Of a DNA stretch of 64,000 nucleotides, positions 14,012 through 53,050 are shown piece by piece; positions within the stretch are counted from its first letter, which is position 1; each line of letters opens with the position of its first letter. The DNA is from Dehalococcoidia bacterium (lineage in GTDB: Bacteria > Chloroflexota > Dehalococcoidia > Lucifugimonadales > UBA3495), in NCBI GenBank assembly GCA_965197665.1, contig CBDANO010000003.1, positions 361,924-425,923 on the forward strand, in the 5' to 3' direction. Both the position numbers and the translations under genes were made by a program. The notes under the pieces were generated by a model. It saw nothing but the letters and a program-made list of their open reading frames with translations. It was not told the DNA's origin and ran no database searches.

Positions 14012-14070
14012 AGCGAGCCTCCTAGCCTGATATTATCCTGTTTATGTAATTTTCATGTGATTCTGGGGGG

Positions 14071-15216: not shown

Positions 15217-15413
15217 ACCATCGTTCCTTTACGTTGTTCCTTTACTCAGTCGTATTAGGAGAGTACGAGAGCTACCGGTCCCTTGGCAAGCCGTATAGAA
15301 GAATATCACAAAAATAGTTAGCGTTCCGCATCGATATTACCCGGCCCATGACGCTGTGCAAATACTGACAAGAAAAGGTTGATTGGCCCCGGCCGTTGCA
15401 CTAGCATAGCCCC

Positions 15414-38431: not shown

Positions 38432-38974
38432 TCAGAAGAAGTTGCTCACGTTCTTGGCCAAGAGCACGTTTTGGTCGAGCACGATTTTGCGGTAAGCGAT
38501 CTTCCACTGGCCGTCCACCTTCCTCAAGGTGTCTTGGCGGCTTCCCACGTAGAAGTCCTGCTCAGTCTCCGCCCTGGTCCGGTACATCAAGAAGTTGGAG
38601 TAAACGGTTAGCTCGTTCTCCGAGGCGCCTGGCTCAATCTCGACGTTGGAGATCATGTGACGGGTGCGGGAAGGGGGGTCTTCGGCCCAAGCCATCCCTG
38701 TATCCAACCGGTCGATTCTCCGGGTAAGAGAGTCTTTGTCCTCGTCCATGATGGCCAATTCTCCCTCCTTGGACACTTCCTCTTCCTCGTAGCGGGCGCC
38801 GTCTAGGATGGAGATGGCCTTGCTCGACACCGGATAGCGGTTGGACCGCACCGGCATCCAGTAGTGTATATCGTCGGTAAGCAGGTCCAGCCACCGGTGA
38901 AATTGCCGGTTGTCCAGCATTCTGGCTTCGCGGTACAGGAACTGCTCCACCTCGCGAATAAGCTCGTCGCGCAT
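38432..38974 (-). CDS. Aromatic-ring-hydroxylating dioxygenase beta subunit (orphan)
   Basis: 180-aa NTF2-like ORF with FLYREARMLDNRQFHRWLDLL. No Rieske alpha subunit is adjacent. Confidence 0.75.
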   Translation of the reverse strand: MRDELIREVEQFLYREARMLDNRQFHRWLDLLTDDIHYWMPVRSNRYPVSSKAISILDGARYEEEEVSKEGELAIMDEDKDSLTRRIDRLDTGMAWAEDPPSRTRHMISNVEIEPGASENELTVYSNFLMYRTRAETEQDFYVGSRQDTLRKVDGQWKIAYRKIVLDQNVLLAKNVSNFF

Positions 38975-39331
38975 GATGATTAGCCTCCTCCGGTTGAGCT
39001 AAGTGGCTCTACATTTCCTTCCGAATGAGCGAGTTACCCTGTTTGAGGCGGGGATGCCCCGGGCCACGATGCCGGGGCGACAGCGGCTTGATTCTCAAGT
39101 CCGGCGAATTCGCCCCTGGGGCCGGCCGGCGGCGCTCAGGTCTTGGTGTTGCAGCAATTGTAGTGATGCCCTGGGAGACCGTCAACAAAAGCGCCGGCTT
39201 GAGGGTTCGCTGGGCGGGCCAACACGCCGAGTTTACTTGTGGTGCTACAAATTGTATATTTGACTCGGACACTTCATGCCTGAATACCTGAATAGTCGTA
39301 TCATCGCCGTTTTGGAATTGAGCATGGCGCC

Positions 39332-42313
39332 ATGATTAGAACGCAAACGAGCATACACGACTTGTTCAAAGCTCAAGCCGCCCGGACCCCGGACGCCATC
39401 GCCTTGGTATCCGGCAACGAACAAATATCATACTCGGAGCTTGACCGGGTAACGGATTCCCTGGGGGCCTATCTTCGCCGCCGCGGGGTATCGCCCGACG
39501 ACCGGGTAGGTGTCCTGATGGAGACCTCCTGGGAGTACGTCGTCGCTTGCATCGGGGCCCTCAAAGCCGGGGGCGCCTTCATGCCCTTGGACTTGGACTC
39601 ACCCGATCATTTGCTGAAGGGCATCGTAGCGGAAGCAACACCGAGGGTAATAATAACCAAGAAGCAGCATGCCTCCCGTTCCAACCTGGATCCCGGCGCC
39701 CACGTATTAGTCTTGGACGCCGCTGAGTCTTGGAGCGAACTCGAAGCCGATCCGGACGGCCCCGTCGTCACCGGCGAGAACCTGGCCTTCGTGCCGTATA
39801 CCTCGGGTACCACCGGCGACCCAAAGGGAGTAATGCAGACCCACGGCGCCGTCACGTCGTCCTACTTCGCGCGGTACGAATTTAGTTCTTATCGAACCGG
39901 AGACCGGGTCGCTTGCAACATATTCTTAATATGGGAGTTTCTCCGGCCGTTGCTCAAGGGAGGGACGGTCTACGTAATTCCTGACGAGGTGATGTTCCTG
40001 CCCCGGGCCCTGACGGAGTTCATCTCCGAACACCGAATATCCGAGGTCTTGTTTACCCCCTCTCTGCTGCAAGGGGTTTTCAACTCGGCGAGCGTCGAGG
40101 ACTTGCGGGCCCGGCTTGAGTCCTTGCGGGTTGTTTGGTTGAACGGCGAGGTCGTGTCTTCCAGCCTCATAGACCAAGCGTTGAAAGTATTTTCCAAGGC
40201 CGCTCGAGTGCTGAATACTTACAGCATTTGCGAGACCCACGATGTTTGCACCGTGGAGTTGAAGAAAGGGGATTGGGACGGGCGGGACGTTTGCCCGGTG
40301 GGGCTTCCCATGGAAGGGGTGACGGTGCGGGTGCTGCCCGAGGGAGAGTCCTCGTTGGCCGCCGTGGGGATGGGCGAGATGTATATAGGGGGGCTGGGCT
40401 TGGCGAGGGGCTATCTGGGGAGGGAGGACTTGGACCAGCAGAAGTTCCTTCCGGTGGGCGGCGATAGGTATTACGCTACCGGCGACCTGGCCGAGATTGA
40501 TTTCCAAGGAATGGTAACCGTCACCGGCCGTAACGATTCGATGGTCAAGGTTAGAGGGTATAGCGTCTACCTCAGCGGTATAGAAGAGACTCTTAGGAAA
40601 CACTGCGATGTCCTCGACGCCGTGGTTACGGCGGAAGCGGAAGACGAGGCCAATAAGCGCCTGATGGCTTACGTTGTCCGCAAACCCGGCGCCGCTTGGC
40701 GGATCGATGCCGGGAGCGGGACTAGCAGGGAGCTGCAGAACCTATTGGACCGGTACCTCCCCCATTTCATGGTGCCCAGCCGGTACATGGAACTGGGCGA
40801 ACTTCCCATCAACCAACAGACGGGCAAACTTAACCGCAAGGCCCTCCCCAAGCTTCAGAAGATCAAGGCCCGCGCCAAGAACCGGGTGGTGAATCCCGAA
40901 CAAGCGACTATGGAGGAGCGGCGTTCGGTGTTGCGGGAGCTATGGGGCGAAGTTCTGGACATGGAGAAGGACTCGTTGGACGACGATTGGAATTTCTTGG
41001 AGCTTGGCGGCCATTCGCTGTCCGGTCTGGAGTTGACGCTGGGCATGGAGCGGGCGTTCGGAATTAAGCTCCAAGGGACGGAAGTCTACGATTACCAGAC
41101 CATCAACAAGCTGGCGGCTTATTTGGGAGATAGAGGTTCGCATATGGACTCCAAGATTTCCCTTGCCGAAGAAGCGCGCTTGGACCCGGAAATCGTGCCG
41201 GCCGGCGGGGCGGCTTGTACCCGCTTGAGTGAAGCGGGTTCGGTATTCATAACCGGCGCTACGGGTTTTCTGGGCGCCTTCCTTCTTGACGAGCTATTAC
41301 GCTCGACGAGCCGGGACACCAAGTTCTATTGCTTGGTCCGGCACCGGGGTGACCGGGGAGGGCCAGAGAGCAACCGGGTGTTAGACACTCTGAGGTTCTA
41401 CGATCTGCCGGGCCAAACGCTCCGTGACCGCGTCGTCCTAGTGAACGGCGATTTGACTCAACCCCAATTCGGATTGGACGATGGGGACTTCAACAGGCTC
41501 GCCAAAGACATGGACTTGATCTTTCACTGCGCGGCTTCCGTTAACTACGTCTACACCTATCCGGCGATCAAGCCCCATACCGTCGGCGGCACCGAAGAGG
41601 TGCTCAAGTTCGCCTGCCGGGCCAAGACCAAGCCGCTTCAGTACGTTTCATCCAATGGAGTTTTTCCCGGCGGAGACGCTACGCCCTACCTGGAAAACAA
41701 GGAGATAGCCGGTTGGGCCCATCGAATGGAGGGCGGCTACAACCAAGCCAAGTGGGTTGCGGAAATGCTGGTGTGGTCGGCCGTATCCCGCGGGCTGCCC
41801 GCCTGTATCTTTAGACCTGGGAACATTGGCCACCACAGCGTCACCGGCGTGGTCAACCCCAACGACTTCCAAACGTTGATAATCAAGTCCTGTTTGCGGG
41901 TTGGGTGCGCTCCCCGGACGCCGGACTGGTTGTTCGAGATGACCCCGGTGGACTTCCTGGTTGAAGCCGTGGCCAGGATAGCCGACGATCCGGTTCATCT
42001 GGGCAGGGTCTACAACGTCGTTCAGGGCGATCCGGTCCCAGCCGACCAAGTCTTCGGCTATATGAAAAGCAACGGGTACATAACGGAGCGCGTACCGTTG
42101 GCGGAGTGGAAGTCAAGATTGGAAGCTTTGGCAGATAAGGAGAACGATCTGGAGCTAAAGATGCTGGTCCAATCTCTGGACTCCGTTGAAGGGTACTTGA
42201 CCGACACCAGCGTCTACGACATCAGCAGGTTCAGCGAGGCTATATCAGCTATGGGCCTGACGCCGCCAACGGTGGACGTGGCCTACGTGACCAAATTCCT
42301 GAGCGGCTCGTAG
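39332..42313 (+). CDS. NRPS-like carboxylate reductase: adenylation - carrier (T) - thioester reductase (A-T-R)
   Basis: 993-aa ORF. A motifs are YTSGTTGDPKGV, NTYSICET, GEMYIGGLGLARGY, YATGD, GRNDSMVKVRGY and GKLNRKAL. The T motif is LELGGHSLSGLEL. The R domain begins FITGATGFLGAFLLDELL. Confidence 0.85.
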   Translation: MIRTQTSIHDLFKAQAARTPDAIALVSGNEQISYSELDRVTDSLGAYLRRRGVSPDDRVGVLMETSWEYVVACIGALKAGGAFMPLDLDSPDHLLKGIVAEATPRVIITKKQHASRSNLDPGAHVLVLDAAESWSELEADPDGPVVTGENLAFVPYTSGTTGDPKGVMQTHGAVTSSYFARYEFSSYRTGDRVACNIFLIWEFLRPLLKGGTVYVIPDEVMFLPRALTEFISEHRISEVLFTPSLLQGVFNSASVEDLRARLESLRVVWLNGEVVSSSLIDQALKVFSKAARVLNTYSICETHDVCTVELKKGDWDGRDVCPVGLPMEGVTVRVLPEGESSLAAVGMGEMYIGGLGLARGYLGREDLDQQKFLPVGGDRYYATGDLAEIDFQGMVTVTGRNDSMVKVRGYSVYLSGIEETLRKHCDVLDAVVTAEAEDEANKRLMAYVVRKPGAAWRIDAGSGTSRELQNLLDRYLPHFMVPSRYMELGELPINQQTGKLNRKALPKLQKIKARAKNRVVNPEQATMEERRSVLRELWGEVLDMEKDSLDDDWNFLELGGHSLSGLELTLGMERAFGIKLQGTEVYDYQTINKLAAYLGDRGSHMDSKISLAEEARLDPEIVPAGGAACTRLSEAGSVFITGATGFLGAFLLDELLRSTSRDTKFYCLVRHRGDRGGPESNRVLDTLRFYDLPGQTLRDRVVLVNGDLTQPQFGLDDGDFNRLAKDMDLIFHCAASVNYVYTYPAIKPHTVGGTEEVLKFACRAKTKPLQYVSSNGVFPGGDATPYLENKEIAGWAHRMEGGYNQAKWVAEMLVWSAVSRGLPACIFRPGNIGHHSVTGVVNPNDFQTLIIKSCLRVGCAPRTPDWLFEMTPVDFLVEAVARIADDPVHLGRVYNVVQGDPVPADQVFGYMKSNGYITERVPLAEWKSRLEALADKENDLELKMLVQSLDSVEGYLTDTSVYDISRFSEAISAMGLTPPTVDVAYVTKFLSGS

Positions 42314-42482
42314 CCTCCCTCCGGCCAATCAAGTCTCTCCCGTAATGCGCCCGTTCCAGGCTAGAAGAGCCGGCGTTAGGCCGGTGACTACAGTGTCGTT
42401 CTCGAGTATAGGGGACGCCATACCGGCCCCCGGTCCGAGTCTTCAGTACACCAGTGCGCCGATGCGTTCTGAGGAGCCGCAA

Positions 42483-43325
42483 ATGCAGGAATCACGAAAC
42501 ATTGCTTCAACCGTGGCCGTCACCAAAGAGTATTACGACGGCCCGGCCGATGAGATATACAAGCTGGTTTGGGGTGAAAACATACACCTTGGGATTCCCT
42601 GCAACGCCGATTGCCCGCATCCGAAAGCCATGGAACACACCAATGAGGTCATGGCCCGGATCGCCGGCTTGAAAAAGGGCTGGCGGGTGCTGGACTTGGG
42701 GTGCGGCTACGGGGCCGCCGCCCGTTATCTGGCTCGAAAGTACGGATGCGCGGTTGTGGGCGTCAACCTGAGTGAAAAGGAGTTGGCGGCGGCAAACCGG
42801 AGCGCCCGCGATGCCGGGCTACAGGGGCCGGTCTCCTTCGAGCTGGGGGACTTTCACTCTCTCAGGTTCGACAGCGAGTCCTTCGACGTAGTGTGGAGCC
42901 AGGAAGCCTTCCTCCACGGCGCGGACAAGTCCCAAGTGATTTCGGAGTGCAAGCGAGTGTTGGTACCCGGTGGCACTTTGATCTTTTCGGACCTCGTGGT
43001 GCGGTCCGGCACCCCCCAGGCCGACCGGGAGCGGATATACGACAGGATAAAATCGCCGGACATGTGGGACGCCGACGACTATCACCGCTGTTTGATTGAG
43101 CAAGGATTTCGGGTGATTCAAGCGGAAGACTGGTCGGGCCACGTGGCCAGGTCATACTCTTGGGTCCGGGATAAGGTGATAGAAAACCGAGGCGAACTGC
43201 TGGCTAGGACGGACTCGGAGACCATCGATCGAACGATCGATTCACTAAGGTTTTGGGTGGATTCGGCCAACGCCGGTAAGATCGGTTGGGCGTTGTTTGC
43301 GGCAGCAAAGGGGGCCGTGAATTAA
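42483..43325 (+). CDS. SAM-dependent N-methyltransferase resembling sarcosine/dimethylglycine N-methyltransferase
   Basis: 280 aa from ATG 42483 (GAGGAG RBS). It carries YYDGPADEIYKLVWGENIHLG and the SAM motif VLDLGCGYGAAARYLA. Size and N-terminal motif match halophile SDMT/DMT as I remember them. Confidence 0.7.
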   Translation: MQESRNIASTVAVTKEYYDGPADEIYKLVWGENIHLGIPCNADCPHPKAMEHTNEVMARIAGLKKGWRVLDLGCGYGAAARYLARKYGCAVVGVNLSEKELAAANRSARDAGLQGPVSFELGDFHSLRFDSESFDVVWSQEAFLHGADKSQVISECKRVLVPGGTLIFSDLVVRSGTPQADRERIYDRIKSPDMWDADDYHRCLIEQGFRVIQAEDWSGHVARSYSWVRDKVIENRGELLARTDSETIDRTIDSLRFWVDSANAGKIGWALFAAAKGAVN

Positions 43326-43413
43326 CAACCCGATGCGAAAGTTTTCCGGGCCGTGGATAGAATCGTCAATGTAACAACCCTGTCCTACAGCCCTTCTTAG
43401 GCGAGACGTTTAG

Positions 43414-43468
43414 GCTCCTACCCAACTTATTACTAATATTCTTTATTACAATTTATGATGGTAGGAGC
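43414..43468. other. 9-bp inverted repeat GCTCCTACC / GGTAGGAGC enclosing a 37-nt AT-rich loop
   Basis: Read directly from the AT-rich spacer between the two methyltransferase genes. Confidence 0.5.
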
Positions 43469-43640
43469 GTCAATACTCAAAACGGGCCGTATCATGCCGG
43501 TATTGTTCGAAATACGCTCTTGTTTCCGCGATACGCCCGCGGAGACCGTAACAATACCAACTAGCGGGGCCTGCATACGGCCATTTGACATACCCAAGTC
43601 AATTGGGTATAGGTAAGTCTACCCCCTTCTTTTTTGCATT

Positions 43641-43672
43641 ACGTTAACGTTTTGTTAGGGGAATGTTAACGT
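43641..43672. promoter_or_regulatory. Two GTTAACGT palindromic boxes 22 bp apart (the first is a perfect ACGTTAACGT); candidate operator
   Basis: Boxes lie at 43643..43650 and 43665..43672, which is 40-70 bp upstream of the GSMT-like start. Confidence 0.3.
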
Positions 43673-43710
43673 CATGTCAAGGCAATGTTATTGATTTCAG
43701 GAGAGCGACC

Positions 43711-44481
43711 ATGCGTACGTCTGAGAAACCGAGTTCCAAACTATTTCTCGAGCAATATACCCCTGCCTTTGTGAGCCGGTGGGATGAATTGATCGACTGG
43801 AAGAGCCGCCGCCGCTCCGAAGACGGGTTCTTCGAGAGGCTCCTGTCTAACACCGGCGCCCGGAAAGTGCTGGATATTGCTTGCGGCACGGGCTATCACA
43901 CGATAAACCTCAGGCTGACGGGCTTCGAAGTGACAGGCGCGGACGGGTCCGCCAACATGCTCTCCAAAGCCCAAGAAAACGCCAACCGGTACGGGTTGGG
44001 AAACATCCGTTTCGTGGAAACTGAGTGGGCCTCTTTGAGCGAATCGTTTCCCGGCGGCAATCAGTTCGATGCCATAGTTTGCTTGGGGAACGCTTTCACC
44101 CACTTGTTTGAAGAACACGACCGGGTCGCAGCCCTCAGGGAAATCTACTCCCTCTTGAACCCCGGCGGAATCGCAATCATAGACCACCGCAACTACGACT
44201 CCATACTCGAAGAGGGATTCAGCAGCAAGCACCAGTACTATTACCTTGGCGACACCGTAGATGTCCGACCGGCTATCGTCCACCCAAACACCCTCGAGTT
44301 GGAATACAACTACGAAGACGGGGAAACTCACTTCCTTACCCTATTTCCGCTGCGCCAAGAGTACCTGACCGGGTTATTGCGGCGGACAGGCTTCGCCTCG
44401 GTGGTCCGCTACGGGGATTTCGAGGAAGACTACGACGCCTTGGCCCCCGACTTCATAGTTCAAGTGGCGACGAAGACCTAG
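43711..44481 (+). CDS. SAM-dependent N-methyltransferase resembling glycine/sarcosine N-methyltransferase
   Basis: 256 aa from ATG 43711 (AGGAGA RBS). It carries WDELIDWKSRRRSEDGFFERLL, VLDIACGTGYHTINL and GADGSANML, a layout typical of GSMT/GNMT-type enzymes. Confidence 0.7.
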   Translation: MRTSEKPSSKLFLEQYTPAFVSRWDELIDWKSRRRSEDGFFERLLSNTGARKVLDIACGTGYHTINLRLTGFEVTGADGSANMLSKAQENANRYGLGNIRFVETEWASLSESFPGGNQFDAIVCLGNAFTHLFEEHDRVAALREIYSLLNPGGIAIIDHRNYDSILEEGFSSKHQYYYLGDTVDVRPAIVHPNTLELEYNYEDGETHFLTLFPLRQEYLTGLLRRTGFASVVRYGDFEEDYDALAPDFIVQVATKT

Positions 44482-45284: not shown

Positions 45285-45361
45285 TGGTAGCGCGTGCGGG
45301 ATTCGAACCCGCGATCTCCGCCTTGAGAGGGCGGTGTCCTTGGCCTCTAGACGAACGCGCC
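45285..45361 (-). tRNA. tRNA-Glu (anticodon CUC), CCA encoded
   Basis: A 77-nt cloverleaf was folded by hand: acceptor GGCGCGT/ACGCGCT, D arm GTCT-AGAGGCCAA-GGAC, anticodon arm CCGCC-CTCTCAA-GGCGG, T arm GCGGG-TTCGAAT-CCCGC, then ACCA. The D and anticodon arms closely match E. coli tRNA-Glu as I remember it. Confidence 0.9.
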
Positions 45362-45636: not shown

Positions 45637-47208
45637 CTAGCCCAACGGTCCTCGCCCGGCGACGAAGGAATCCCGCGCCCGGACCACTGCCTTGAGCTTG
45701 GCCTCCGCAACGCCGGCGGAAGCTACTGGGTTGTCGGCGAAGGTGGCGAATCCGCAGTCGGGAGTGAACAAGACGCGCTCCCGTCCGAAGAGATGGACGG
45801 CTTGGTTTATTCGCCGGCGTATGTCCTCGTTCGGCTCCACGGCGTCCACCTTTTGGTTGACGACACCGACGCCGACCCGCTTGTCGTCAGGGATGCCCCG
45901 GAGCACCTCAGCCTCGCCGGCGCGCTCGGTGCAAAGCTCCAGGAACAAGACGCCGACCTCCGCCCGCTTCAGAAGGTCCAAGAGCGGCCGGTAATCGCCG
46001 GCCAAGGCGGCGGACTCGTCGCCGGTCCAGTTGCCCCGGCAGATGTGCAGGCCCAAGCGCTCCTTGGGCAGGCCCAGGACCACTTGGTTCAGCAGCCCGA
46101 CGGCGAAGTCCAGCTCTGGGCCCGGGGCCAGCTTTTCGCTCAGGGCGCCGCACATGAAGCTGCGGGTCCGGCTGGCGGCGCCGAAGACGACCTCGGTCAG
46201 CACCGGCTCGTCGAACTGCACCAAGGCCGCGCCGGAGGCCAGCAGGAAATGCAGTTCCTCACGGACTACCCGGACGATGTCTCGGGCCAGTTCCTCCCGG
46301 GTCCGGTAAGGGCGGTCAGTGAGGCAGTCCAGCCACATGGTGCGCGTGAGCAAGTAGGGGCCGGGCAACGCCACTTTCACCGGCAGGTCGGCGCAAGTCT
46401 TGGCAAAGTCGAATTCGTGGACGGCTAGAGGCCTGCTCCGGCCCAGACTGCCGTAGACCACCGGGTGCCGGACCTCCGCCGCGGGAACGTCGAGGGCGCG
46501 AAGCTCCAACTCGAACTCTTCCGGGTCGTCCACCATGGCGGTGAGGTCGCTGAGGGGGATGAGCTGGCAGTTGTCCAGCAGCCCGCCAACGAAGCTGGCG
46601 TAGCTGTCCCGCCGTTGTTCGCCGTCGGTCAGAACGTCAACCCCCGCCCTAAGCTGGGCGTCAAGGCAGAGACGCACCGCGTCGTCCGCCGTGGCCTGGT
46701 AGTCGGCCTCGTCCAGCCGGCCCTCCAAGCGGTCGTGTATGGCTTGGAGCATCCATCGGGGCCGGGGCCAACTCCCGATGCCCATGACGGACAACGGACC
46801 AATCTTTGGGGCCCGGACCGGCGGCGGCAGCGATCCGGGGATGGCCACCGGGACCCGTAGCTGCTCGCCTATTCCCGCGGCGGACGCTTGGGTGCCGTGC
46901 GGGGCGTCATCGATGTCACGCTCAATACCGCGCTCAACATCACGGTCAATATATGGGCCCTTGCTGACCAGAAAGCTTCGCCGGCGGCCCTCCTTGGTCC
47001 AAGAGACCAGTTCGTTTTTGGTCAACCGGCACCAAGCCGGGAGTTCGACCTCAACCGTTGAATCGGTGGACAGGATTTCCAGCAGGCCGCCGGGGTTCAA
47101 GGGGTCGATGTGCCGGCGGATAAGCAGCAGCAATCCGCCGCCGCAGTCTAGGTCTCCGCCGTCGAAGCTAACGTCAGGTTGGCGGGCGTGTTGTGGGACC
47201 GGTTCCAT
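45637..47208 (-). CDS. Fusion protein: N-terminal TusA-like domain plus C-terminal cobalamin-independent methionine synthase (MetE catalytic-domain)-like Zn methyltransferase
   Basis: From ATG 47208 the N-terminus reads GGDLDCGGGLLLLIRRH...LPAWCRL (TusA/SirA-like). The C-terminal 370 aa carry MetE-like zinc ligand motifs LHICRGNW, LFLELCTE and FTPDCGFAT. Confidence 0.75.
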   Translation of the reverse strand: MEPVPQHARQPDVSFDGGDLDCGGGLLLLIRRHIDPLNPGGLLEILSTDSTVEVELPAWCRLTKNELVSWTKEGRRRSFLVSKGPYIDRDVERGIERDIDDAPHGTQASAAGIGEQLRVPVAIPGSLPPPVRAPKIGPLSVMGIGSWPRPRWMLQAIHDRLEGRLDEADYQATADDAVRLCLDAQLRAGVDVLTDGEQRRDSYASFVGGLLDNCQLIPLSDLTAMVDDPEEFELELRALDVPAAEVRHPVVYGSLGRSRPLAVHEFDFAKTCADLPVKVALPGPYLLTRTMWLDCLTDRPYRTREELARDIVRVVREELHFLLASGAALVQFDEPVLTEVVFGAASRTRSFMCGALSEKLAPGPELDFAVGLLNQVVLGLPKERLGLHICRGNWTGDESAALAGDYRPLLDLLKRAEVGVLFLELCTERAGEAEVLRGIPDDKRVGVGVVNQKVDAVEPNEDIRRRINQAVHLFGRERVLFTPDCGFATFADNPVASAGVAEAKLKAVVRARDSFVAGRGPLG

Positions 47209-47242
47209 CAGGGGGCCTCGGATGTGGGTATGGAACAACCGC

Positions 47243-47605
47243 TTAGTAGGTGATGCAGGGTGTGCCGTTGCTGAGAAACTCCACCAGTACGGCCCCGCCG
47301 ACGATTCTCGCGCCATCGACCAGATTACTTTCATCCAGCCCGCGTTTCCTAAAACACGGGGCGCAGACGTAGATGCTCCCCTCTGCGGTGGCGAAGTTGT
47401 CCATCAGTTCCTTGAGGGGCAGGTACCCCTCCTCGTGGACGTCGTCTGGGTATCCCTTTTGGGACAGCCGGACGCCTTCGGTGCTAAGGAAGACGACGGT
47501 GTCCTTTTCCGAGCCGAGGGCCGCGTTGGCTAGGACGAAAGCCACGGTCGCCTTGTCGGTGTCGTCCTTAGCGCAGGTGAGGCTAACGCAGAATTTATCC
47601 GCCAT
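47243..47605 (-). CDS. DsrE/DsrF-like sulfur-relay family protein
   Basis: 120 aa from ATG 47605, with KATVAFVLANAAL ... YVCAPCFRKRG. Confidence 0.65.
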   Translation of the reverse strand: MADKFCVSLTCAKDDTDKATVAFVLANAALGSEKDTVVFLSTEGVRLSQKGYPDDVHEEGYLPLKELMDNFATAEGSIYVCAPCFRKRGLDESNLVDGARIVGGAVLVEFLSNGTPCITY

Positions 47606-47640
47606 TTTGGTCCGTATTCCCTCCGGTGCGTAATTTGTTA

Positions 47641-47907
47641 CTAGTTGCTTTTTGCTTCGATCCAGTAGTGAGGATGCTCGGCGCGGAGCAGCCGGCGGCC
47701 GGTCATCCGGCACCAAGCCGGCAGGTCTTCGGGAGCGCCCAGGTCCTGGGAGGTCAGCTTAAGCACGTCTCCCGGGTTGAGCTTTCTCATTCGGAGCCGG
47801 AGCAAGATGATGACCTCGCCGCAACCCATGTGGCCCGCGTCCCATTCGTCGGCGACGGGCATATCGGCCTCTTGGAACCGGGGAGCGCCCGGCTCAAAGT
47901 TGGTCAC
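47641..47907 (-). CDS. TusA-like sulfurtransferase family protein
   Basis: 88-aa ORF with HMGCGEVIILLRLRM...DLPAWCRMTG. It parallels the N-terminal domain of the fusion protein. Confidence 0.65.
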   Translation of the reverse strand: MTNFEPGAPRFQEADMPVADEWDAGHMGCGEVIILLRLRMRKLNPGDVLKLTSQDLGAPEDLPAWCRMTGRRLLRAEHPHYWIEAKSN

Positions 47908-49675: not shown

Positions 49676-51178
49676 TTGATCAAAGACCGACAAGTCAGGC
49701 TACTGAGGCAGAAACTTATGAAAGGAAAGACACAGGAGACGGCGGCGGCCATGGCTGGGATGAGCGTGCGATCGGCGCGCAAGTGGCAGAGCGGCCCGTT
49801 GCCGTCGGAGACCAGGCAGGATCGCTGGTGGCGCACCCGGCCCGACCCCTTCGACGGGATTTGGGAGGAGGAGATTGAGCCCCTGTTGCAAGGTGATCCA
49901 GCGGGCAGGCTGAAAGCAACGACAATTATCGAATGGTTGGAGGAGCGGCATCCCGGCCGGTTCAGCGCCTCGCAACTGCGTACCCTGCAACGACGACTAC
50001 AGGACTGGCGAGCGCTGAACGGTCCCGATCAGGAGGTGTACTTCCCCCAGGAGCATCCGCCGGGCCGGGAAGCCCAGTTCGACTTCACTCACTGCAATGC
50101 CCTGGGCGTGACCGTCGCCGGCCAGCTCTATCCCCACCTGCTGTTCCAAATGATTCTCAGCCACTCGGGGTGGCGTTACGCCGAGGTCGCCACCGGCGAG
50201 ACCTTCCTGGCATTGCAGCAGGGACTGCAGTCCGCCCTCTGGGCTTTGGGCGGTGTACCGGAGGTGGTGCGCAGCGACAATACGTCTGCCGCCACCCACG
50301 AAATGCGCCGCAGCCGCGGCCGCGCACTAAACGACAATTACGCCGCCCTCCTGGACCACTACGGCCTGCGCTCCACCCGCATCAATCGTGGCCAGAGCCA
50401 TGAAAACGGCATAGCCGAGCAGGGACATTATCGCCTCAAGGATGCCGTGGACCAGGCCCTCATCCTGCGCGGCAGCCGCGATTTCCACACCGCCGACGAT
50501 TACGCCGGTTTCGTCCAGCAGATGGTCGAGAAGCGCAATCGCCTGGTGAAGGGGAAGCTGGAGCAGGAAATGGCTTGCCTACGGCCCCTGCCGCCAGCTC
50601 CCATGCCGGAATACGTCAACTACCAGTCCAGGGTGCGCAAGTGGAGCACCATCCAGGTAGCGGGACATAGCTACAGCGTCCCATCCCGTCTCATCGGCAA
50701 GGAAGTGCAGATCCGTCTGTACTCCGACTGGGTGGAAGTGTACTACAAGAGCCACCTGGTGGAGGGCATGTCGCGGGTGCGTGGCGAAGGGGAGTCCAAC
50801 GTCAATTACCGCCACGTCATCGGCTCGCTGGTGCGCAAGCCCGGGGCCTTCGCTCGCTACCGCTTCCGGGAGCAGCTGTTTCCCACCATGCCCTTCCGGC
50901 TGGCCTACGACGCACTAAAGGAGTGGCGTGGCGAGCGTGCCGACGTGGAGTACGTGCGTATCCTGCAGCTGGCGGCCACGACCATGGAAGCCACGGTGGA
51001 CAGCGCGCTGTCGTTGCTGCTGGAGGCGGGTGAGCCCTTCGACTACACCCAGGTCCGGGACCTGGCCGAGCCGAAGCCTCCCGAGGCCCCGGCGCTGGCC
51101 TGGTCCGGGCAGCCGGACCTGAAAATCTACGACGGCCTGCTCACGAGCAGTCTGTCAGTGGCGGCGGTGGGTGGATGA
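49676..51178 (+). CDS. istA: IS21-family transposase IstA
   Basis: 500-aa ORF with an N-terminal HTH and a DDE integrase core. Layout is typical: it overlaps istB by 4 nt (ATGA). Confidence 0.9.
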   Translation: MIKDRQVRLLRQKLMKGKTQETAAAMAGMSVRSARKWQSGPLPSETRQDRWWRTRPDPFDGIWEEEIEPLLQGDPAGRLKATTIIEWLEERHPGRFSASQLRTLQRRLQDWRALNGPDQEVYFPQEHPPGREAQFDFTHCNALGVTVAGQLYPHLLFQMILSHSGWRYAEVATGETFLALQQGLQSALWALGGVPEVVRSDNTSAATHEMRRSRGRALNDNYAALLDHYGLRSTRINRGQSHENGIAEQGHYRLKDAVDQALILRGSRDFHTADDYAGFVQQMVEKRNRLVKGKLEQEMACLRPLPPAPMPEYVNYQSRVRKWSTIQVAGHSYSVPSRLIGKEVQIRLYSDWVEVYYKSHLVEGMSRVRGEGESNVNYRHVIGSLVRKPGAFARYRFREQLFPTMPFRLAYDALKEWRGERADVEYVRILQLAATTMEATVDSALSLLLEAGEPFDYTQVRDLAEPKPPEAPALAWSGQPDLKIYDGLLTSSLSVAAVGG

Positions 51179-51957
51179 TGAACACCGACACCCGCGTCGT
51201 GCAGGAACGCATCGGCCAGCTGTGCCACCAATTCAAGCTGCCCACGGTGGCGGCGGAAACCACTTCGCGTTTCACCGAGGCAGGCCACGGCGACGCCCTG
51301 CCCACCCTGCTTGAGGTGTTGGAGCAGGAAGCCGAGGATCGCCGCCAGCGACGCATCATCCGGCTGCTTCGGGAATCCAGGCTGCCTTTGGGCAAGACCT
51401 GGGAGACCTTCGAGCACCACCGGATGCCCTTGGCGCTGCGCCAGCAACTGGACCATCTGGCCCAGGGCAGTTTCGTGGAGCACGGCGTCAACGTCCTGGC
51501 CTTCGGATTGCCCGGCACCGGCAAGACCCATGCCCTGTGCGCCCTGGGCCACCGGCTGGTGGAAGCCGGCCACTCCGTCCTCTTTGCCCCAGCCTACCGC
51601 TTGGTGCAGGAACTCCTCGCCGCCAAGCGAGACCTGGACCTGCCCCGCCGGCTCCGCAGGCTGGACAACTTCGACTTCCTGCTCCTGGACGACCTGGGCT
51701 ATCTGCCCCAGGGGGCCGAGGAGTCCGAGGTGCTCTTCACCCTCATCGCCGAGCGCTACGAACGGAGGTCCCTGGGCATAACGTCAAACCTGGTCTTCTC
51801 CGAGTGGGAGCGCATCTTTGCCAACCCCATGGCCACCGCCGCGGCCATCGACCGGGTGGTGCACCACTCCGTCATCCTCGAGTTTGACGTCCCCAGCTAC
51901 CGGACTGATGCAGCCCAGCAACGGGGACAACCACAGGAGGTGAACCGGCAAAACTAA
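51175..51957 (+). CDS. istB: IS21-family ATP-binding helper IstB
   Basis: 260-aa ORF with Walker A GLPGTGKTH and Walker B FLLLDDLGY. Confidence 0.9.
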   Translation: MMNTDTRVVQERIGQLCHQFKLPTVAAETTSRFTEAGHGDALPTLLEVLEQEAEDRRQRRIIRLLRESRLPLGKTWETFEHHRMPLALRQQLDHLAQGSFVEHGVNVLAFGLPGTGKTHALCALGHRLVEAGHSVLFAPAYRLVQELLAAKRDLDLPRRLRRLDNFDFLLLDDLGYLPQGAEESEVLFTLIAERYERRSLGITSNLVFSEWERIFANPMATAAAIDRVVHHSVILEFDVPSYRTDAAQQRGQPQEVNRQN

Positions 51958-52110
51958 TCGACGACTATTCGGCACAAATAGTTGACGCGGGACACCTGCG
52001 GAGGGCGAAGTCGCGGACATAAAGCTTTATCCTCCGGGAAGTTTGGTAAAGGGGACTTGGAGGTGAAAGATAATAAGACCGGGGAAACCGGAGGAGTGAG
52101 GTGGACCCAG

Positions 52111-53050
52111 TCAGTTGGACAGAATTAAGGCGGAGTTAAGTGAGGGTCCCGCCGCTCCCGCATAAGATACCACGTCTGCTTCCGGCGACCACCTCCCAAC
52201 TGTTGACTCTTCATTTTGGGGCTCCCGGCCCTCAGAGAACACTTCCCCCGGCGTCCTATATCCCAAGGCCTGATGAGGCCTCTGGTCATTATAGAACCGG
52301 AAGTAAGCTCCCAGTTCCCTCCGGGCCTCCCCCGCGCTGGCGTAGGCTTTCAGGTACACCTCCTCGTACTTCACCGTGCGCCACAGCCGCTCGACGAAGA
52401 TGTTGTCCGCGTACCTCCCCTTCCCGTCCATGCTGATCTTCACACCGCGGTCCTGAAGGACCTGGGTGAATTCCTGGCTGGTGAACTGGCTCCCTTGGTC
52501 GGTGTTGAACACCTCCGGCCTTCCCCTCTCCATCGCCTCGATCAGAGCCTCGGCGCAGAAGCCGGCCTCCAGGGTGTTGGACAGACGCCAGGACAGGACA
52601 TACCGGCTGTGCCAGTCCATGACGGCCACCAGGTAGAGGAATCCCCGGGCCATGGGCAGGTAGGTGATATCGGCGGCCCACACCTGGTTGGGTCTGGTGA
52701 TTGCGGCCTTCCCCAACAGATAGGGATAGACCCGCACTCCCGGCGCCGGTCGGCTGGTTCTGGGTCGCCGGTAGATGGCCCTCAGTCCCATGACCCGCAT
52801 CAGCCGCTGCACCCGCTTCCGGCTCACCTGCTTGCCCTGCCGCTCCAGCCAGACCTTCATCCGCCTAGACCCATAGAAGGGGGTCTCCAGGTACTGCCGG
52901 TCCATCTCCCGCATCAGCGGCCCGCTTCCGAAGCCCCCTGGGGACGGTAGTAGATGCTGGAGCGGCTCACCCCCAGCAGGGCGCATTGCCCCACTATCGG
53001 CAACGAGGGATGCTCCCGGTCCACCATCTCCCGCCGCCGGGCCGGGTTCA
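52111..53050 (-). pseudogene. IS3-family transposase OrfB (DDE integrase core) with an internal frameshift
   Basis: ATG 53050 overlaps the orfA stop (ATGA) and reads MNPARRREMVDREHPSLPIVGQCALLGVSRSSIYYRPQGASEAGR, stopping at 52914. The integrase core (PLMREMDRQY...WAADITY...TDQGSQF) continues in another frame to 52111. Confidence 0.7.

What the first reader, a model, noticed from the sequence alone, without database searches (positions are those of the whole stretch)
39332..44481. NRPS-like A-T-R reductase clustered with a GSMT-like/SDMT-like methyltransferase pair: candidate bacterial glycine to betaine to betaine-aldehyde/choline route
Seen in sequence:
- A 993-aa ORF has complete adenylation motifs, a GGHSL carrier motif and a C-terminal GATGFLG thioester-reductase domain.
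- Two SAM methyltransferases follow on the same strand.
- The first (280 aa) has an N-terminus (YYDGPADEIYKLVWGENIHLG) that resembles sarcosine/dimethylglycine N-methyltransferases.
- The second (256 aa) carries WDELIDWKSRRRSEDGFF...GADGSANML and resembles glycine/sarcosine N-methyltransferases.

Established knowledge: GSMT plus SDMT make glycine betaine from glycine in halophilic bacteria and cyanobacteria. A fungal NRPS-like A-T-R-R enzyme (ATRR) reduces glycine betaine via betaine aldehyde to choline.

Inference:
- This co-localisation suggests a pathway that methylates glycine and then reductively activates the betaine carboxylate, or a related N-methylated amino acid.
- With a single R domain the predicted product is an aldehyde.
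- In my hand alignment of core A4 (ACNIFLIWEF versus GrsA AFDASVWEMF), the Asp235 position that binds a free alpha-amino group is Ile, with Phe and Trp nearby. That fits a substrate without a primary amine.
- The cluster is bounded by AT-rich spacers and a tRNA-Glu, so it may be horizontally acquired.

I know of no described bacterial operon of this composition.
Basis: partly seen in the sequence, partly recalled or inferred. Interest (0 to 1): 0.8.

Follow-up and report, generated by a model that had tools for sequence, protein, structure and literature searches.

The report
Bacterial betaine-reductase-like enzyme with betaine-synthesis genes
A marine Chloroflexota (Dehalococcoidia/SAR202-type) genome carries a conserved three-gene cassette: two methyltransferases that should make glycine betaine from glycine, and a bacterial one-reductase relative of the fungal enzyme that reduces betaine towards choline. 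If confirmed, this would be a route not yet described in bacteria.

Summary
A 993-aa A-T-R protein (39332-42313) is followed on the same strand by an SDMT-like methyltransferase (42483-43325) and a GSMT-like one (43711-44481).

MT2 keeps 10 of 11 substrate, cofactor and catalytic residues of the crystallised Methanohalophilus GSMT. MT1's best family and structure matches are SDMTs. Both score below NCBI's strict equivalog cut-offs.

The A-T-R belongs to a large, highly conserved Chloroflexota family. It aligns end to end (35% identity) with the A-T-R1 part of a eukaryotic A-T-R1-R2 protein. It shares the ATRR clade's motifs and has F198/W201/W269/D304 where published Aspergillus ATRR has its betaine cage F201/W204/W270/E304.

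The trio recurs in eight loci (ATR identity 67-100%), twice flanked by transposases. It is a derived state. Most family members sit next to a different small methyltransferase and a PfkB-fold protein that lacks the catalytic Asp.

A glycine to betaine to betaine-aldehyde/choline route is the best-supported reading (about 0.5). It is unproven: the clade also contains a tryptophan-reducing enzyme, the product's redox state is open, and composition does not support recent horizontal acquisition. I found no prior description in the literature I could search.

The parts
39232..39260 (+). Weak sigma-70-like promoter match (TTTACT-17-TATATT), 72 bp upstream of the ATR start codon
   Evidence: It matches 9 of 12 positions. 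The region has 5 such sites against 2.7 expected from shuffles, so this is only a consensus match.
39332..42313 (+). ATR: a single-module NRPS-like carboxylate reductase, 993 aa, with adenylation, carrier and thioester-reductase domains. Proposed activator and reducer of glycine betaine or a closely related N-methylated glycine.
   Evidence: The family is conserved at 64% identity or more in over 120 clusters. It is 35% identical over 1018 aa to the eukaryotic A-T-R1-R2 protein P0482.
39365..40813 (+). Adenylation domain (residues 12-494). Putative cation-binding pocket: I197, F198, L199 (F in most relatives), W201, L240, W269, N271, T296, H303, D304, K499. The A5 motif is NTYSICE rather than NxYGPTE.
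   Evidence: Invariant or near-invariant in 28 family members and in 33 loci down to 40% identity. Positional match to AnATRR F201/F202/W204/W270/E304 and to PtNRPS1 F214/F215/W217/F285/E319.
40928..41125 (+). Carrier (thiolation) domain, residues 533-598. The phosphopantetheine attachment Ser is in LGGHSL (S562).
   Evidence: Pfam PP-binding 57 bits. S562 is invariant. Motif position.
41243..42295 (+). Thioester reductase domain, residues 638-988. It has the TGATGFLG nucleotide-binding motif and the Y803-x3-K807 catalytic pair.
   Evidence: TIGR01746 scores 279.4 bits against a cut-off of 213.35. Best solved relative is the MxaA R domain 4u7w, E=2e-73. Y803 and K807 are invariant.
42483..43325 (+). 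MT1: an SDMT-like class I SAM methyltransferase, 280 aa. Proposed to carry out sarcosine to dimethylglycine to glycine betaine.
   Evidence: Best NCBIfam hit is NF041675 SDMT, 174.6 bits over the full length, below the 550 cut-off. Best PDB hit is 2o57, Galdieria SDMT, E=4e-34. Orthologues at 66-71% identity follow the ATR gene in L008, L009, L035, L038, L039 and L040.
43326..43710 (.). AT-rich (GC 0.457) spacer specific to this lineage, lying between MT1 and MT2. It has a tandem 22-nt repeat and an inverted repeat containing GTTAACG (43637-43686) just upstream of MT2. It may hold a separate promoter or operator for MT2.
   Evidence: It is shared only with L005 (99% identical). The same gap is 43 bp in L009 and 16 bp or overlapping in L041 and L042. 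No Rfam match.
43711..44481 (+). MT2: a glycine/sarcosine N-methyltransferase (GSMT)-like enzyme, 256 aa. Proposed to carry out glycine to sarcosine to dimethylglycine.
   Evidence: PDB 5gwx (MpGSMT) E=1e-69 over the full length, 46.7% identity. Y26, W34, W40, R43, L132, N134, H138, R167, Y185 and Y206 are conserved, and M218 becomes L. NF051855 scores 277.6 bits against a cut-off of 350.

Best explanation
The three genes form a functional cassette for making, and then reductively activating, a methylated glycine.

Proposed steps:
1. MT2 (GSMT-type) and MT1 (SDMT-type) use SAM to methylate glycine stepwise to glycine betaine.
2. The ATR protein is a bacterial, single-reductase homologue of the A-T-R1 part of the eukaryotic ATRR enzymes. 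Its adenylation domain binds the cationic head group in a pocket that lacks the usual Asp235. Instead it offers F198, W201 and W269 for cation-pi contacts and D304 as the counter-charge.
3. The A domain adenylates the carboxylate and loads it as a thioester on the carrier domain (S562).
4. The R domain releases it with NAD(P)H as betaine aldehyde. Either the same R domain or an unlinked dehydrogenase then takes it on to choline.

What is shown:
- the domain architecture and intact catalytic motifs;
- GSMT active-site conservation in MT2;
- full-length homology of the ATR to an A-T-R1-R2 protein;
- positional identity of the pocket residues;
- conserved gene linkage.

What is inferred: the identity of the substrate, the direction of flux, and the redox state of the product.

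Evolutionary reading: across the family the ancestral partners of the ATR are a different ~230-aa methyltransferase (oMT) and a PfkB-fold protein. The GSMT/SDMT pair exists on its own elsewhere in SAR202 genomes. One clade recruited it immediately downstream of the ATR gene, and there oMT and the PfkB-fold gene tend to be lost. That pattern is what one expects if all these methyltransferases supply the ATR's substrate.
For: 1. Architecture and catalytic motifs are intact.

2. MT2 is 46.7% identical to MpGSMT over the full length and conserves 10 of the 11 residues examined: 8 of the 9 substrate-, cofactor- and catalysis-related residues named in PMC5146677, plus W34 and W40.

3. MT1's best family hit is SDMT over the full length, and its best solved relative is the Galdieria SDMT. 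JGI names its homologues SDMT. MT1 followed by MT2 is a conserved adjacent pair even away from any ATR gene.

4. ATR-MT1-MT2 in the same order and on the same strand occurs in window, L005, L008, L009, L035, L039 and L040. L038 has ATR-MT1. In these loci the ATR is 67-100% identical to the window's. Gaps in L009 are 79 and 43 bp. In L039 and L040 the trio is flanked by transposases or resolvases on both sides, so it appears to move as a unit.

5. The pocket motif CN(I/V)FFxWE...WxN...NTYSI(C/S)ExHDV is invariant down to 40% identity.

6. The window ATR aligns collinearly (12-990 against 23-1023, 35% identity, 576 bits) with P0482. P0482 has Pfam architecture A-T-NAD_binding_4-adh_short, and it shares these motifs and the same deletions relative to canonical A domains.

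7. Published residue numbers map position for position: AnATRR F201/F202/W204/W270/E304, PtNRPS1 F214/F215/W217/F285/E319, window F198/L199/W201/W269/D304. The discriminating position is Trp in the betaine enzyme and in the window family, Phe in the tryptophan enzyme, and Val in P0482.

8. Supporting context:
- an OpuAC (betaine-binding) domain gene lies 2.5 kb upstream of the ATR in the L001/L003/L004 clade;
- MetH and formate-THF ligase flank the ATR in L024 and L034;
- oMT's best match in the window is MT1.
Against: - No biochemical data exist.
- Neither methyltransferase reaches NCBIfam's equivalog cut-off.
- The FFxWE and acidic-residue features occur across the whole clade, including a diatom enzyme reported to reduce tryptophan, so much of the specificity argument rests on the single position W269.
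- I could not obtain the AnATRR sequence, so the correspondence is inferred from published residue numbers and from alignment to P0482.
- There is no R2 domain, and no conserved aldehyde reductase sits nearby. The SDR beside the ATR in the 40% clade resembles R2 no more than other SDRs do.
- Most SAR202 genomes keep MT1-MT2 and the ATR at separate loci.
- A spirochaete ATR with the same pocket has no betaine-related neighbours.
- The structure prediction failed: pLDDT was below 50 over the pocket region.
- Making betaine and immediately reducing it has no obvious physiological rationale unless choline is the goal.
Confidence: 0.5

Rival explanations
1. Two independent functions happen to be neighbours. 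MT1+MT2 are simply the cell's glycine-betaine osmolyte or piezolyte synthesis pair. The ATR reduces a different cationic carboxylate, such as another betaine (beta-alanine betaine, carnitine, gamma-butyrobetaine), DMSP or an amino acid, and is not fed by them.
For: - The MT1-MT2 pair stands alone, with no ATR within 8 kb, in L041-L044.
- Most ATR genes lack the pair.
- In the window, MT2 is separated from MT1 by a 385-bp spacer with promoter- or operator-like features.
- The clade includes a tryptophan reductase.
- The 40% clade sits beside CoA-transferase III genes, the Pfam family that also contains carnitine CoA-transferase (that membership is from my own knowledge).
Against: - The same order and strand are kept in at least six diverged lineages, with 43-79 bp gaps in L009.
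- The trio is kept together when flanked by IS elements.
- oMT and the PfkB-fold gene tend to be lost where MT1/MT2 were gained, which suggests functional replacement.
- W269 matches the betaine enzyme rather than the tryptophan enzyme.
Confidence: 0.2
2. The ATR acts on a partly methylated glycine (sarcosine or dimethylglycine) and releases an N-methylated aminoacetaldehyde or ethanolamine. Methylation to the quaternary amine is completed afterwards, by oMT in most lineages. Choline or phosphocholine is therefore built by reducing first and methylating later.
For: - oMT is the ATR's near-universal partner and is only distantly related to the SDMT/phosphoethanolamine-MT group.
- Aromatic cages also bind protonated tertiary amines (my own knowledge).
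- D304 is shorter than ATRR's Glu, which changes the pocket geometry.
- L009 keeps MT1, MT2 and oMT together, so oMT is not simply redundant there.
Against: - The window lineage has no oMT anywhere in 64 kb yet keeps the ATR under strong conservation.
- According to the ATRR paper, each methyl group contributes to binding in the homologous pocket.
- SDMT-type enzymes normally finish at betaine (my own knowledge).
Confidence: 0.13
3. This is a secondary-metabolite NRPS-like enzyme. The ATR releases an amino aldehyde that condenses into a pyrazine, piperazine or imine-type product, as PvfC, HqlA or AusA-type reductases do, and the methyltransferases are tailoring enzymes.
For: - Best NCBIfam profile hits are to MxcG and AusA modules.
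- A-T-R enzymes are commonly classed as biosynthetic gene clusters.
- IS elements flank some copies.
Against: - The family is extremely conserved (64% identity or more, constant ~992 aa, hundreds of clusters) and near-ubiquitous in one lineage, which is more typical of core metabolism.
- Asp235, needed to bind a free alpha-amine, is absent.
- MT2 keeps the exact glycine/sarcosine-binding residues.
- There are no condensation, oxidase or transporter genes typical of such clusters.
Confidence: 0.07

Closest known systems
Fungal ATRR, the NRPS-like glycine betaine reductase (Aspergillus nidulans AN5318; Hai, Huang & Tang 2019, bioRxiv 10.1101/559534), and the wider eukaryotic A-T-R1-R2 clade (nematode MiATRR, PMC11050029; diatom PtNRPS1, PMC13194791)
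   Same: - The A-T-R core is homologous along its whole length: 35% identity over 1018 aa to the A-T-R1-R2 protein P0482.
- Both lack Asp235.
- Both share FFxWE, the same deletions before A4, and the A5 variant NxYS(I/V)SE.
- Cage residues correspond: F198/W201/W269/D304 against F201/W204/W270/E304.
   Different: - The window protein has only one reductase domain and no SDR-type R2.
- It is bacterial, from Chloroflexota. Relatives with the same pocket are encoded in a spirochaete genome (P0376) and on unplaced metagenomic contigs (P0369, P0378).
- It has Asp where ATRR has Glu as the counter-charge.
- It is genomically coupled to methyltransferases, whereas the ATRR paper reported no informative gene context in fungi.
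- Its substrate is untested.
Two-enzyme glycine betaine synthesis, GSMT + SDMT (Methanohalophilus portucalensis, PMC5146677 and PMC3176816; Aphanothece halophytica; Ectothiorhodospira/Actinopolyspora)
   Same: - MT2 is 46.7% identical to MpGSMT, with all polar substrate, cofactor and catalytic residues kept.
- MT1's best matches are SDMTs.
- The two genes are adjacent, as in known betaine operons.
   Different: - Both score below NCBIfam's equivalog cut-offs.
- The gene order is SDMT-like first, then GSMT-like.
- They are linked to a carboxylate reductase rather than standing alone or sitting with SAM-recycling genes.
- The host is a marine Chloroflexota lineage, not a halophile.
Terminal NRPS/PKS thioester reductase domains MxaA (PDB 4u7w) and MxcG
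   Same: Closest solved R domain (E=2e-73) and best NCBIfam profile hit. Same TGxxGxxG and YxxxK motifs.
   Different: Those domains release peptide or polyketide chains from multi-module lines. From my own knowledge they perform four-electron reduction to alcohols. Here the R domain serves a stand-alone single module acting on a small acid.
Bacterial carboxylic acid reductases (CAR) and fungal Lys2
   Same: Same A-T-R logic: ATP-dependent activation, a thioester on a carrier domain, and NADPH-dependent release as an aldehyde.
   Different: The CAR profile scores 181.8 bits against a cut-off of 1300, and the Lys2 profile 314 against 1030. The A domain is of the amino-acid-adenylating NRPS type, not the aryl- or fatty-acid type.

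Membership tests
ATRR-type glycine betaine reductase | Domain architecture A-T-R1-R2, i.e. a thioester reductase followed by an SDR-type aldehyde reductase | tested here: not met
   Pfam finds A, T and one NAD_binding_4 domain and nothing after residue 993. The true A-T-R1-R2 protein P0482 has an extra adh_short domain at 1046-1235.
ATRR-type glycine betaine reductase | Full-length homology of the A-T-R1 core to ATRR-clade proteins | tested here: met
   BLASTP against P0482: 35% identity over 1018 aa, 576 bits, collinear. P0482's contig is eukaryotic. I could not obtain the AnATRR sequence itself.
ATRR-type glycine betaine reductase | Loss of the Asp235 equivalent that binds a free alpha-amino group | tested here: met
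   There is no acidic residue between D191 and E202. In the alignment, I197 sits where canonical A domains have FD(A/S).
ATRR-type glycine betaine reductase | Aromatic cage (F201, W204, W270) plus an anionic residue (E304) for the quaternary ammonium | tested here: met
   F198, W201, W269 and D304 are invariant across the family. The correspondence comes from published numbering for AnATRR and PtNRPS1 together with alignment to P0482. This is indirect, because there was no direct alignment to AnATRR. The window has Asp instead of Glu.
ATRR-type glycine betaine reductase | Glycine-betaine-dependent NADPH oxidation and formation of betaine aldehyde or choline | not testable with these tools
   Requires enzyme assays.
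Glycine/sarcosine N-methyltransferase (GSMT): MT2 | Score at or above the NCBIfam NF051855 equivalog cut-off (350 bits) | tested here: not met
   277.6 bits over the full length of the profile (13-256 of 259).
Glycine/sarcosine N-methyltransferase (GSMT): MT2 | Substrate-binding and catalytic residues of MpGSMT: R167, Y206, N134, H138, M218, Y26, Y185, R43, L132 | tested here: met
   All are conserved except M218, which becomes L. W34 and W40 are also conserved.
Glycine/sarcosine N-methyltransferase (GSMT): MT2 | Gene adjacent to an SDMT-type partner | tested here: met
   An MT1 orthologue lies immediately upstream in every locus that has MT2.
Sarcosine/dimethylglycine N-methyltransferase (SDMT): MT1 | Score at or above the NCBIfam NF041675 equivalog cut-off (550 bits) | tested here: not met
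   174.6 bits. It is still the best family hit and covers profile positions 8-277 of 278. The next family scores 103.9 bits.
Sarcosine/dimethylglycine N-methyltransferase (SDMT): MT1 | Closest solved or characterised relative is an SDMT | tested here: met
   Best PDB hit is 2o57, the Galdieria sulphuraria SDMT, E=4e-34. The next hits are O-methyltransferases and phosphoethanolamine MTs at 1e-25 to 1e-27.
Sarcosine/dimethylglycine N-methyltransferase (SDMT): MT1 | Methylation of sarcosine and dimethylglycine | not testable with these tools
   Requires an assay. I had no residue-level definition of SDMT specificity to test against.
NRPS thioester reductase domain (TIGR01746) | Profile score above the cut-off, plus the nucleotide-binding and YxxxK motifs | tested here: met
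   279.4 bits against 213.35. TGATGFLG is at 641-648. Y803 and K807 are invariant.
Canonical amino-acid adenylation domain (TIGR01733) | Profile score above the cut-off (317.4), FDxS in A4 and NxYGPTE in A5 | tested here: not met
   277.5 bits. A4 reads CNIFLIWE and A5 reads NTYSICE.
Carboxylic acid reductase (NF041592) | Equivalog score of 1300 bits or more | tested here: not met
   181.8 bits.

The most novel reading that the evidence does not exclude
Marine SAR202/Dehalococcoidia carry a previously unrecognised pathway that reduces glycine betaine, made de novo from glycine or taken up, to betaine aldehyde or choline using a single-R homologue of eukaryotic ATRR. Relatives with the same pocket are encoded in at least one other bacterial phylum (a spirochaete). 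The ancestral three-gene core (ATR, a novel ~230-aa methyltransferase, and a PfkB-fold protein that has lost the catalytic Asp) would then be an uncharacterised system for quaternary-amine metabolism. Bacteria would gain a route to free choline that is independent of phospholipid N-methylation, and the origin of the eukaryotic ATRR enzymes could be traced.
Probability: 0.3. Interest if true: 0.8.

Novelty: new variant of a known kind. Interest (0 to 1): 0.68.

Why it matters
Glycine betaine and choline are major currencies of carbon, nitrogen and methyl groups in the ocean, and they are precursors of trimethylamine.

The only characterised enzyme that converts betaine back to choline is the eukaryotic ATRR. 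[quoted passage not shown]

The enzyme family described here is abundant in deep-ocean metagenomes and is very strongly conserved in SAR202-type Chloroflexota, one of the dominant dark-ocean lineages. If it is a betaine reductase, three things follow:
- a bacterial sink for betaine and a bacterial source of choline would be added to marine budgets;
- de novo choline synthesis from glycine in bacteria would become directly testable;
- a compact A-T-R biocatalyst for small quaternary-ammonium acids would become available.

The family also offers a natural series (Trp, Phe or Val at one pocket position) for learning how this clade of A domains selects its substrates.

Tried and rejected
1. Getting the AnATRR sequence or its 10-residue code. 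The PNAS version is not held. The alignments in the bioRxiv supplement and the nematode paper's figures exist only as images. The nematode supplements hold no sequence. I worked around this with an R-domain-only representative search, which recovered a eukaryotic A-T-R1-R2 protein, and with residue numbers from the diatom paper.

2. Structure route. AlphaFold on the 28-sequence family alignment gave mean pLDDT 56.7, and below 50 over residues 146-413. It was unusable, so I ran no fold search.

3. Sequence-only assignment of positions 235 and 236 against PDB A domains. HMMER placed the gaps differently depending on the template. A MAFFT alignment with clade members resolved this.

4. SDR link. 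The SDRs next to the ATR (40% clade), next to stand-alone MT1-MT2 pairs, and ATRR's R2 domain are all only 30-37% identical to one another, which is generic SDR similarity. This gives no evidence for a detached R2.

5. Choline-lipid link. The CDP-alcohol phosphatidyltransferase near the ATR in L006 resembles a PIP synthase, not Pcs.

6. Riboswitch or other RNA element in the spacers. Rfam finds only the tRNA.

7. Compositional signal of horizontal transfer. GC and GC3 of the three genes overlap those of their neighbours.

8. Independent context in another phylum. The Ca. Haliotispira prima ATR has no betaine-related neighbours.

9. A remnant of oMT or the PfkB-like gene in the window. None was found.

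10. An ElbD-type ether-lipid NRPS-like family reported in sponge Chloroflexi has a different architecture and is not this family.

Full report
**1. Observation**

- **ATR (39332-42313, +, 993 aa).** Pfam finds AMP-binding (12-362), AMP-binding_C (417-494), PP-binding (533-598) and NAD_binding_4 (640-880). NCBIfam's thioester-reductase domain model TIGR01746 is passed, at 279 bits against a cut-off of 213.
- **Methyltransferase starts.** The likely starts are 42483 (280 aa) and 43711 (256 aa). The same starts were called independently in a 98%-identical contig (L005).
- **tRNA.** tRNA-Glu(CTC) lies at 45285-45361 on the minus strand.
- **Correction.** Only the MT1-MT2 spacer is AT-rich, at GC 0.457. 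The other spacers (0.57-0.62) and the GC3 of the three genes (0.72-0.74) are within the range of the neighbourhood.

**2. The methyltransferases**

*MT2.*
- It aligns over its full length with the crystallised Methanohalophilus portucalensis GSMT (5gwx, E=1e-69), at 46.7% identity.
- I mapped the residues that PMC5146677 assigns to substrate binding (R167, Y206, N134, H138, M218), to catalysis (Y26, Y185) and to cofactor binding (R43, L132), plus W34 and W40. All are conserved except M218, a van der Waals contact, which becomes Leu.
- The bacterial GSMT equivalog model scores 277.6 bits, below its cut-off of 350.

*MT1.*
- Its best family hit is the SDMT equivalog, which covers the whole profile but scores only 174.6 bits against a cut-off of 550.
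- Its best solved relative is the Galdieria SDMT (2o57, E=4e-34).
- Its homologues are abundant in Dehalococcoidia and SAR202, and JGI's automated annotation names some of them SDMT.

*The pair elsewhere.* In other SAR202-type contigs, MT1 followed by MT2 is a tightly packed pair that stands alone with no ATR within 8 kb. Those copies are 63-68% identical to the window proteins.

I therefore regard MT2 as a GSMT in mechanism. MT1 is SDMT-like, but its membership of that family is not proven.

**3. The ATR family**

- **Size and conservation.** The protein belongs to a large, tightly conserved family. More than 120 clusters at the 90% level are at least 64% identical to it, and almost all are about 992 aa.
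- **Hosts and habitats.** Members come from Dehalococcoidia MAGs and from many deep-ocean metagenomes.
- **Pocket.** Putative pocket residues are invariant in a 28-sequence alignment and in 33 loci down to 40% overall identity. The conserved pattern is CN(I/V)FFxWE ... W269-x-N271 ... N295-T-Y-S-I-(C/S)-E-x-H303-D304-V.
- **How it differs from canonical A domains.** Those have FD(A/S) and NxYGPTE at these positions. HMMER could not place the A4 gap consistently.

**4. Relationship to ATRR**

The ATRR paper names F201, W204 and W270 as an aromatic cage and E304 as the counter-charge, and notes the loss of Asp235. I could not obtain the AnATRR sequence.

- **Search strategy.** An A-domain query would be swamped by multi-module NRPSs, whose scores add up across modules. 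I therefore searched the representative library with the R domain alone.
- **What it recovered.** P0482 (1289 aa) has Pfam architecture A, T, NAD_binding_4, adh_short, which is A-T-R1-R2. Its contig has eukaryotic neighbours and sparse genes.
- **Alignment.** The window ATR aligns collinearly with P0482's A-T-R1 part, at 35% identity over 1018 aa and 576 bits. The two share CN(I/V)FFxWE, the same deletions relative to canonical A domains, and NxYS(I/V)SExHD.
- **Residue map from the diatom paper.** That paper gives AnATRR F202 and W204, and PtNRPS1 N212, F214, F215, V216, W217, F285 and E319. Combined, this yields:

| Enzyme | Pocket positions |
|---|---|
| AnATRR (betaine) | F201 / F202 / W204 / W270 / E304 |
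| PtNRPS1 (tryptophan) | F214 / F215 / W217 / F285 / E319 |
| Window ATR | F198 / L199 (F in most relatives) / W201 / W269 / D304 |

- **Reading.** In PtNRPS1 the Glu is described as salt-bridging the substrate's amine. The acidic residue is therefore the cation binder throughout the clade, and the FFxW motif is a clade feature. The position that varies with substrate is 269. It is Trp in the betaine enzyme and in the window family, Phe in the tryptophan enzyme and Val in P0482.
- **Weight of this evidence.** It is the strongest residue-level argument for a small quaternary-ammonium substrate. It is indirect and rests largely on one position.

**5. Gene neighbourhoods**

I collected 47 loci. 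I clustered their ORFs for the loci in hand and added the later loci by tblastn.

- **The trio recurs.** ATR followed by MT1 then MT2, on one strand, occurs in window, L005, L008, L009, L035, L039 and L040. L038 has ATR-MT1. In these loci the ATR is 67-100% identical to the window's.
- **Tight spacing.** In L009 the gaps are 79 and 43 bp.
- **Mobility.** In L039 and L040 the trio lies between transposase and resolvase genes.
- **The commoner state.** In about 20 loci the ATR is next to a different ~230-aa class I methyltransferase (oMT). In about 16 it is next to a ~320-330-aa PfkB-fold protein.
- **Fullest version.** L009 shows PfkB-ATR-MT1-MT2-oMT.
- **Tree.** A neighbour-joining tree of the ATR proteins makes the oMT and PfkB linkage ancestral. 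The MT1/MT2 linkage is a gain in one clade, with later replacement in L037 and in L001/L003/L004.
- **Betaine-binding gene.** L001/L003/L004 have an OpuAC betaine-binding-domain gene, another methyltransferase and an ERG4/DUF1295-like membrane protein upstream.
- **Window.** It has neither oMT nor the PfkB-fold gene anywhere in its 64 kb.
- **oMT relationships.** oMT matches no curated family. Its best match in the window is MT1, at 27% identity.
- **PfkB-fold partner.** It has GYGAGA(A/S)F where kinases of this fold have GAGD, so the catalytic Asp is lost. It also has LGDDAA in place of the GG motif, in all 12 distinct sequences.
- **Methyl-cycle neighbours.** In L024 and L034 the ATR sits between MetH and formate-THF ligase. 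Both genes are also present about 27 kb upstream in the window.

**6. Mechanism proposed**

GSMT (MT2) and the SDMT-like enzyme (MT1) convert glycine to glycine betaine. The ATR adenylates it, thioesterifies it on S562 and reduces it.

- **Redox state is open.** Homology to ATRR-R1 argues for betaine aldehyde. The closest solved R domain (MxaA) and the best profile hit (MxcG) come from systems that, by my own knowledge, reduce to alcohols.
- **No aldehyde reductase found.** No conserved one is linked. The SDR that follows the ATR in the 40% clade resembles ATRR-R2 no more than other SDRs do.
- **Gain and loss pattern.** MT1/MT2 were gained in one clade, where oMT tends to be lost. This fits the idea that the neighbouring methyltransferases supply the ATR's substrate, but it is an inference.

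**7. Rivals**

- **(a) Neighbours with unrelated functions, 0.2.** Supported by stand-alone MT pairs and by many ATR genes without them.
- **(b) Reduction of sarcosine or dimethylglycine, with methylation completed afterwards by oMT, 0.13.**
- **(c) A secondary-metabolite amino-aldehyde synthase, 0.07.** Disfavoured by the family's conservation, the absent Asp235 and the lack of other biosynthetic genes.

**8. Novelty**

Searches of the held literature found no bacterial ATRR-like betaine reductase and no description of this cassette. A 2022 marine study called the pathway unexplored in marine microbes and attributed atrr-like transcripts mainly to eukaryotes.

The thing itself is a variant of known kinds, namely ATRR-type reduction plus GSMT/SDMT synthesis. 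It has a new architecture (single R), a new host range and a new genomic coupling. The ancestral ATR-oMT-PfkB-fold core is entirely uncharacterised.

**9. Limits**

- There is no biochemistry.
- There is no direct AnATRR alignment.
- The structure model failed.
- The neighbourhood sample is biased towards what the scans returned.
- The independent context in a spirochaete was uninformative.
- Composition gives no support for recent horizontal acquisition in this window, although IS21 and an rve integrase lie 5-8 kb downstream.

Noticed in passing
L006:8126-9121(+), L009:687-1634(+) and about 14 other loci (not in the window): A PfkB-fold protein of ~320-330 aa is a recurrent neighbour of the ATR gene. 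In all 12 distinct sequences it has GYGAGA(A/S)F where PfkB kinases have GAGD, so the catalytic Asp is lost. It also has LGDDAA where the GG substrate-lid motif should be. It may not be a kinase, and the acidic lid could suit a cationic ligand.
   Followed up: partly
L006:9133-9831(-), L009:6452-7117(+) and about 18 other loci (not in the window): A ~230-aa class I methyltransferase (oMT) is the most constant partner of the ATR gene. It matches no curated family and has only weak PDB matches (YtkW, MitM, phosphoethanolamine MTs). It has more than 120 clusters of homologues, all with generic names. Its function is unknown.
   Followed up: partly
window 43637-43686: A tandem 22-nt direct repeat (GTTAACGTTTTGTTAGGGGAAT / GTTAACGTCATGTCAAGGCAAT) overlaps a 15-nt inverted repeat, 25 bp upstream of the MT2 start. 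It sits inside a 385-bp AT-rich spacer found only in this lineage. It looks like an operator and suggests that MT2 is regulated separately here.
   Followed up: partly
L024:6088-9588 and 13304-14980; L034 likewise; window 7102-9912 and 10767-12410: In two deep-ocean contigs the ATR gene sits between B12-dependent methionine synthase (MetH) and formate-THF ligase. The window has these two genes close together about 27 kb upstream of the ATR. This is a weak link to methyl and one-carbon metabolism.
   Followed up: no
L004:6854-9852 (= L001, L003): The 79%-identical ATR clade has different neighbours: an OpuAC (betaine-binding) domain protein, a 247-aa methyltransferase whose best NCBIfam hit is the daptide N-methyltransferase, and an ERG4/ERG24-DUF1295-like membrane protein upstream. 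A ~430-aa esterase-like protein lies downstream, and L037 has this too.
   Followed up: partly
L039:1-7065 and 13954-17359; L040:265-5761 and 15115-16579; L038:5463-6788 and 14634-15959: Copies of the ATR-MT1(-MT2) cassette are bracketed by IS256-type, IS3-type (rve) and DDE transposases and by resolvases. This suggests the cassette moves as a composite unit in some genomes.
   Followed up: partly
window 45637-47907 (-): Downstream of the tRNA lies a gene encoding a 565-aa protein with a MetE-like (cobalamin-independent methionine synthase) catalytic domain that scores below all equivalog cut-offs. The L005 gene call for its orthologue carries a faint TusA hit. It is followed by DsrE-like and TusA-like genes. 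This is an unusual sulfur-relay and methyltransfer combination.
   Followed up: no
window 38432-38974 (-): An HcaF-like ring-hydroxylating dioxygenase beta subunit (208 bits, above its subfamily cut-off) has no alpha-subunit gene adjacent. It lies directly upstream of, and divergent from, the ATR gene.
   Followed up: no
window 49676-52986: An IS21-family transposase (500 aa), an adjacent 260-aa ORF that I did not annotate (possibly its helper gene), and on the other strand an rve-type integrase. They lie 5-8 kb downstream of the cassette. The 98%-identical strain L005 has DUF433, HEPN and GmrSD genes there instead, so this flank is variable between close strains.
   Followed up: partly
L028:7216-9702 and 13045-13752 (= L029, L032, L033): The most distant ATR clade (40% identity, same pocket) is preceded by two CoA-transferase family III genes and a leucyl-aminopeptidase-like gene. 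It is followed directly by a 235-aa SDR. Whether that SDR substitutes for ATRR's R2 domain could not be decided.
   Followed up: partly
P0376 (L047:10001-13336), P0369, P0378, P0450, P0490: The same A-domain pocket type (CN(I/V)FFxWE, Trp at position 269, NxYSxSExH(D/E)) occurs outside Chloroflexota: in a spirochaete (Ca. Haliotispira prima), in TE-A-T-R and N-terminally extended A-T-R proteins, and in one case with Glu in place of D304. The clade is therefore broader than this one family.
   Followed up: partly
L041:6494-7246, L042:7125-7976, L044:7061-7912: Stand-alone MT1-MT2 pairs are each preceded on the same strand by an SDR gene. However, the L041 SDR is only ~35% identical to the other two, while those of L042 and L044 are 87% identical to each other. 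In L042 and L044 a SAM hydroxide adenosyltransferase-like gene (SAM_HAT) lies about 3-4 kb downstream.
   Followed up: partly
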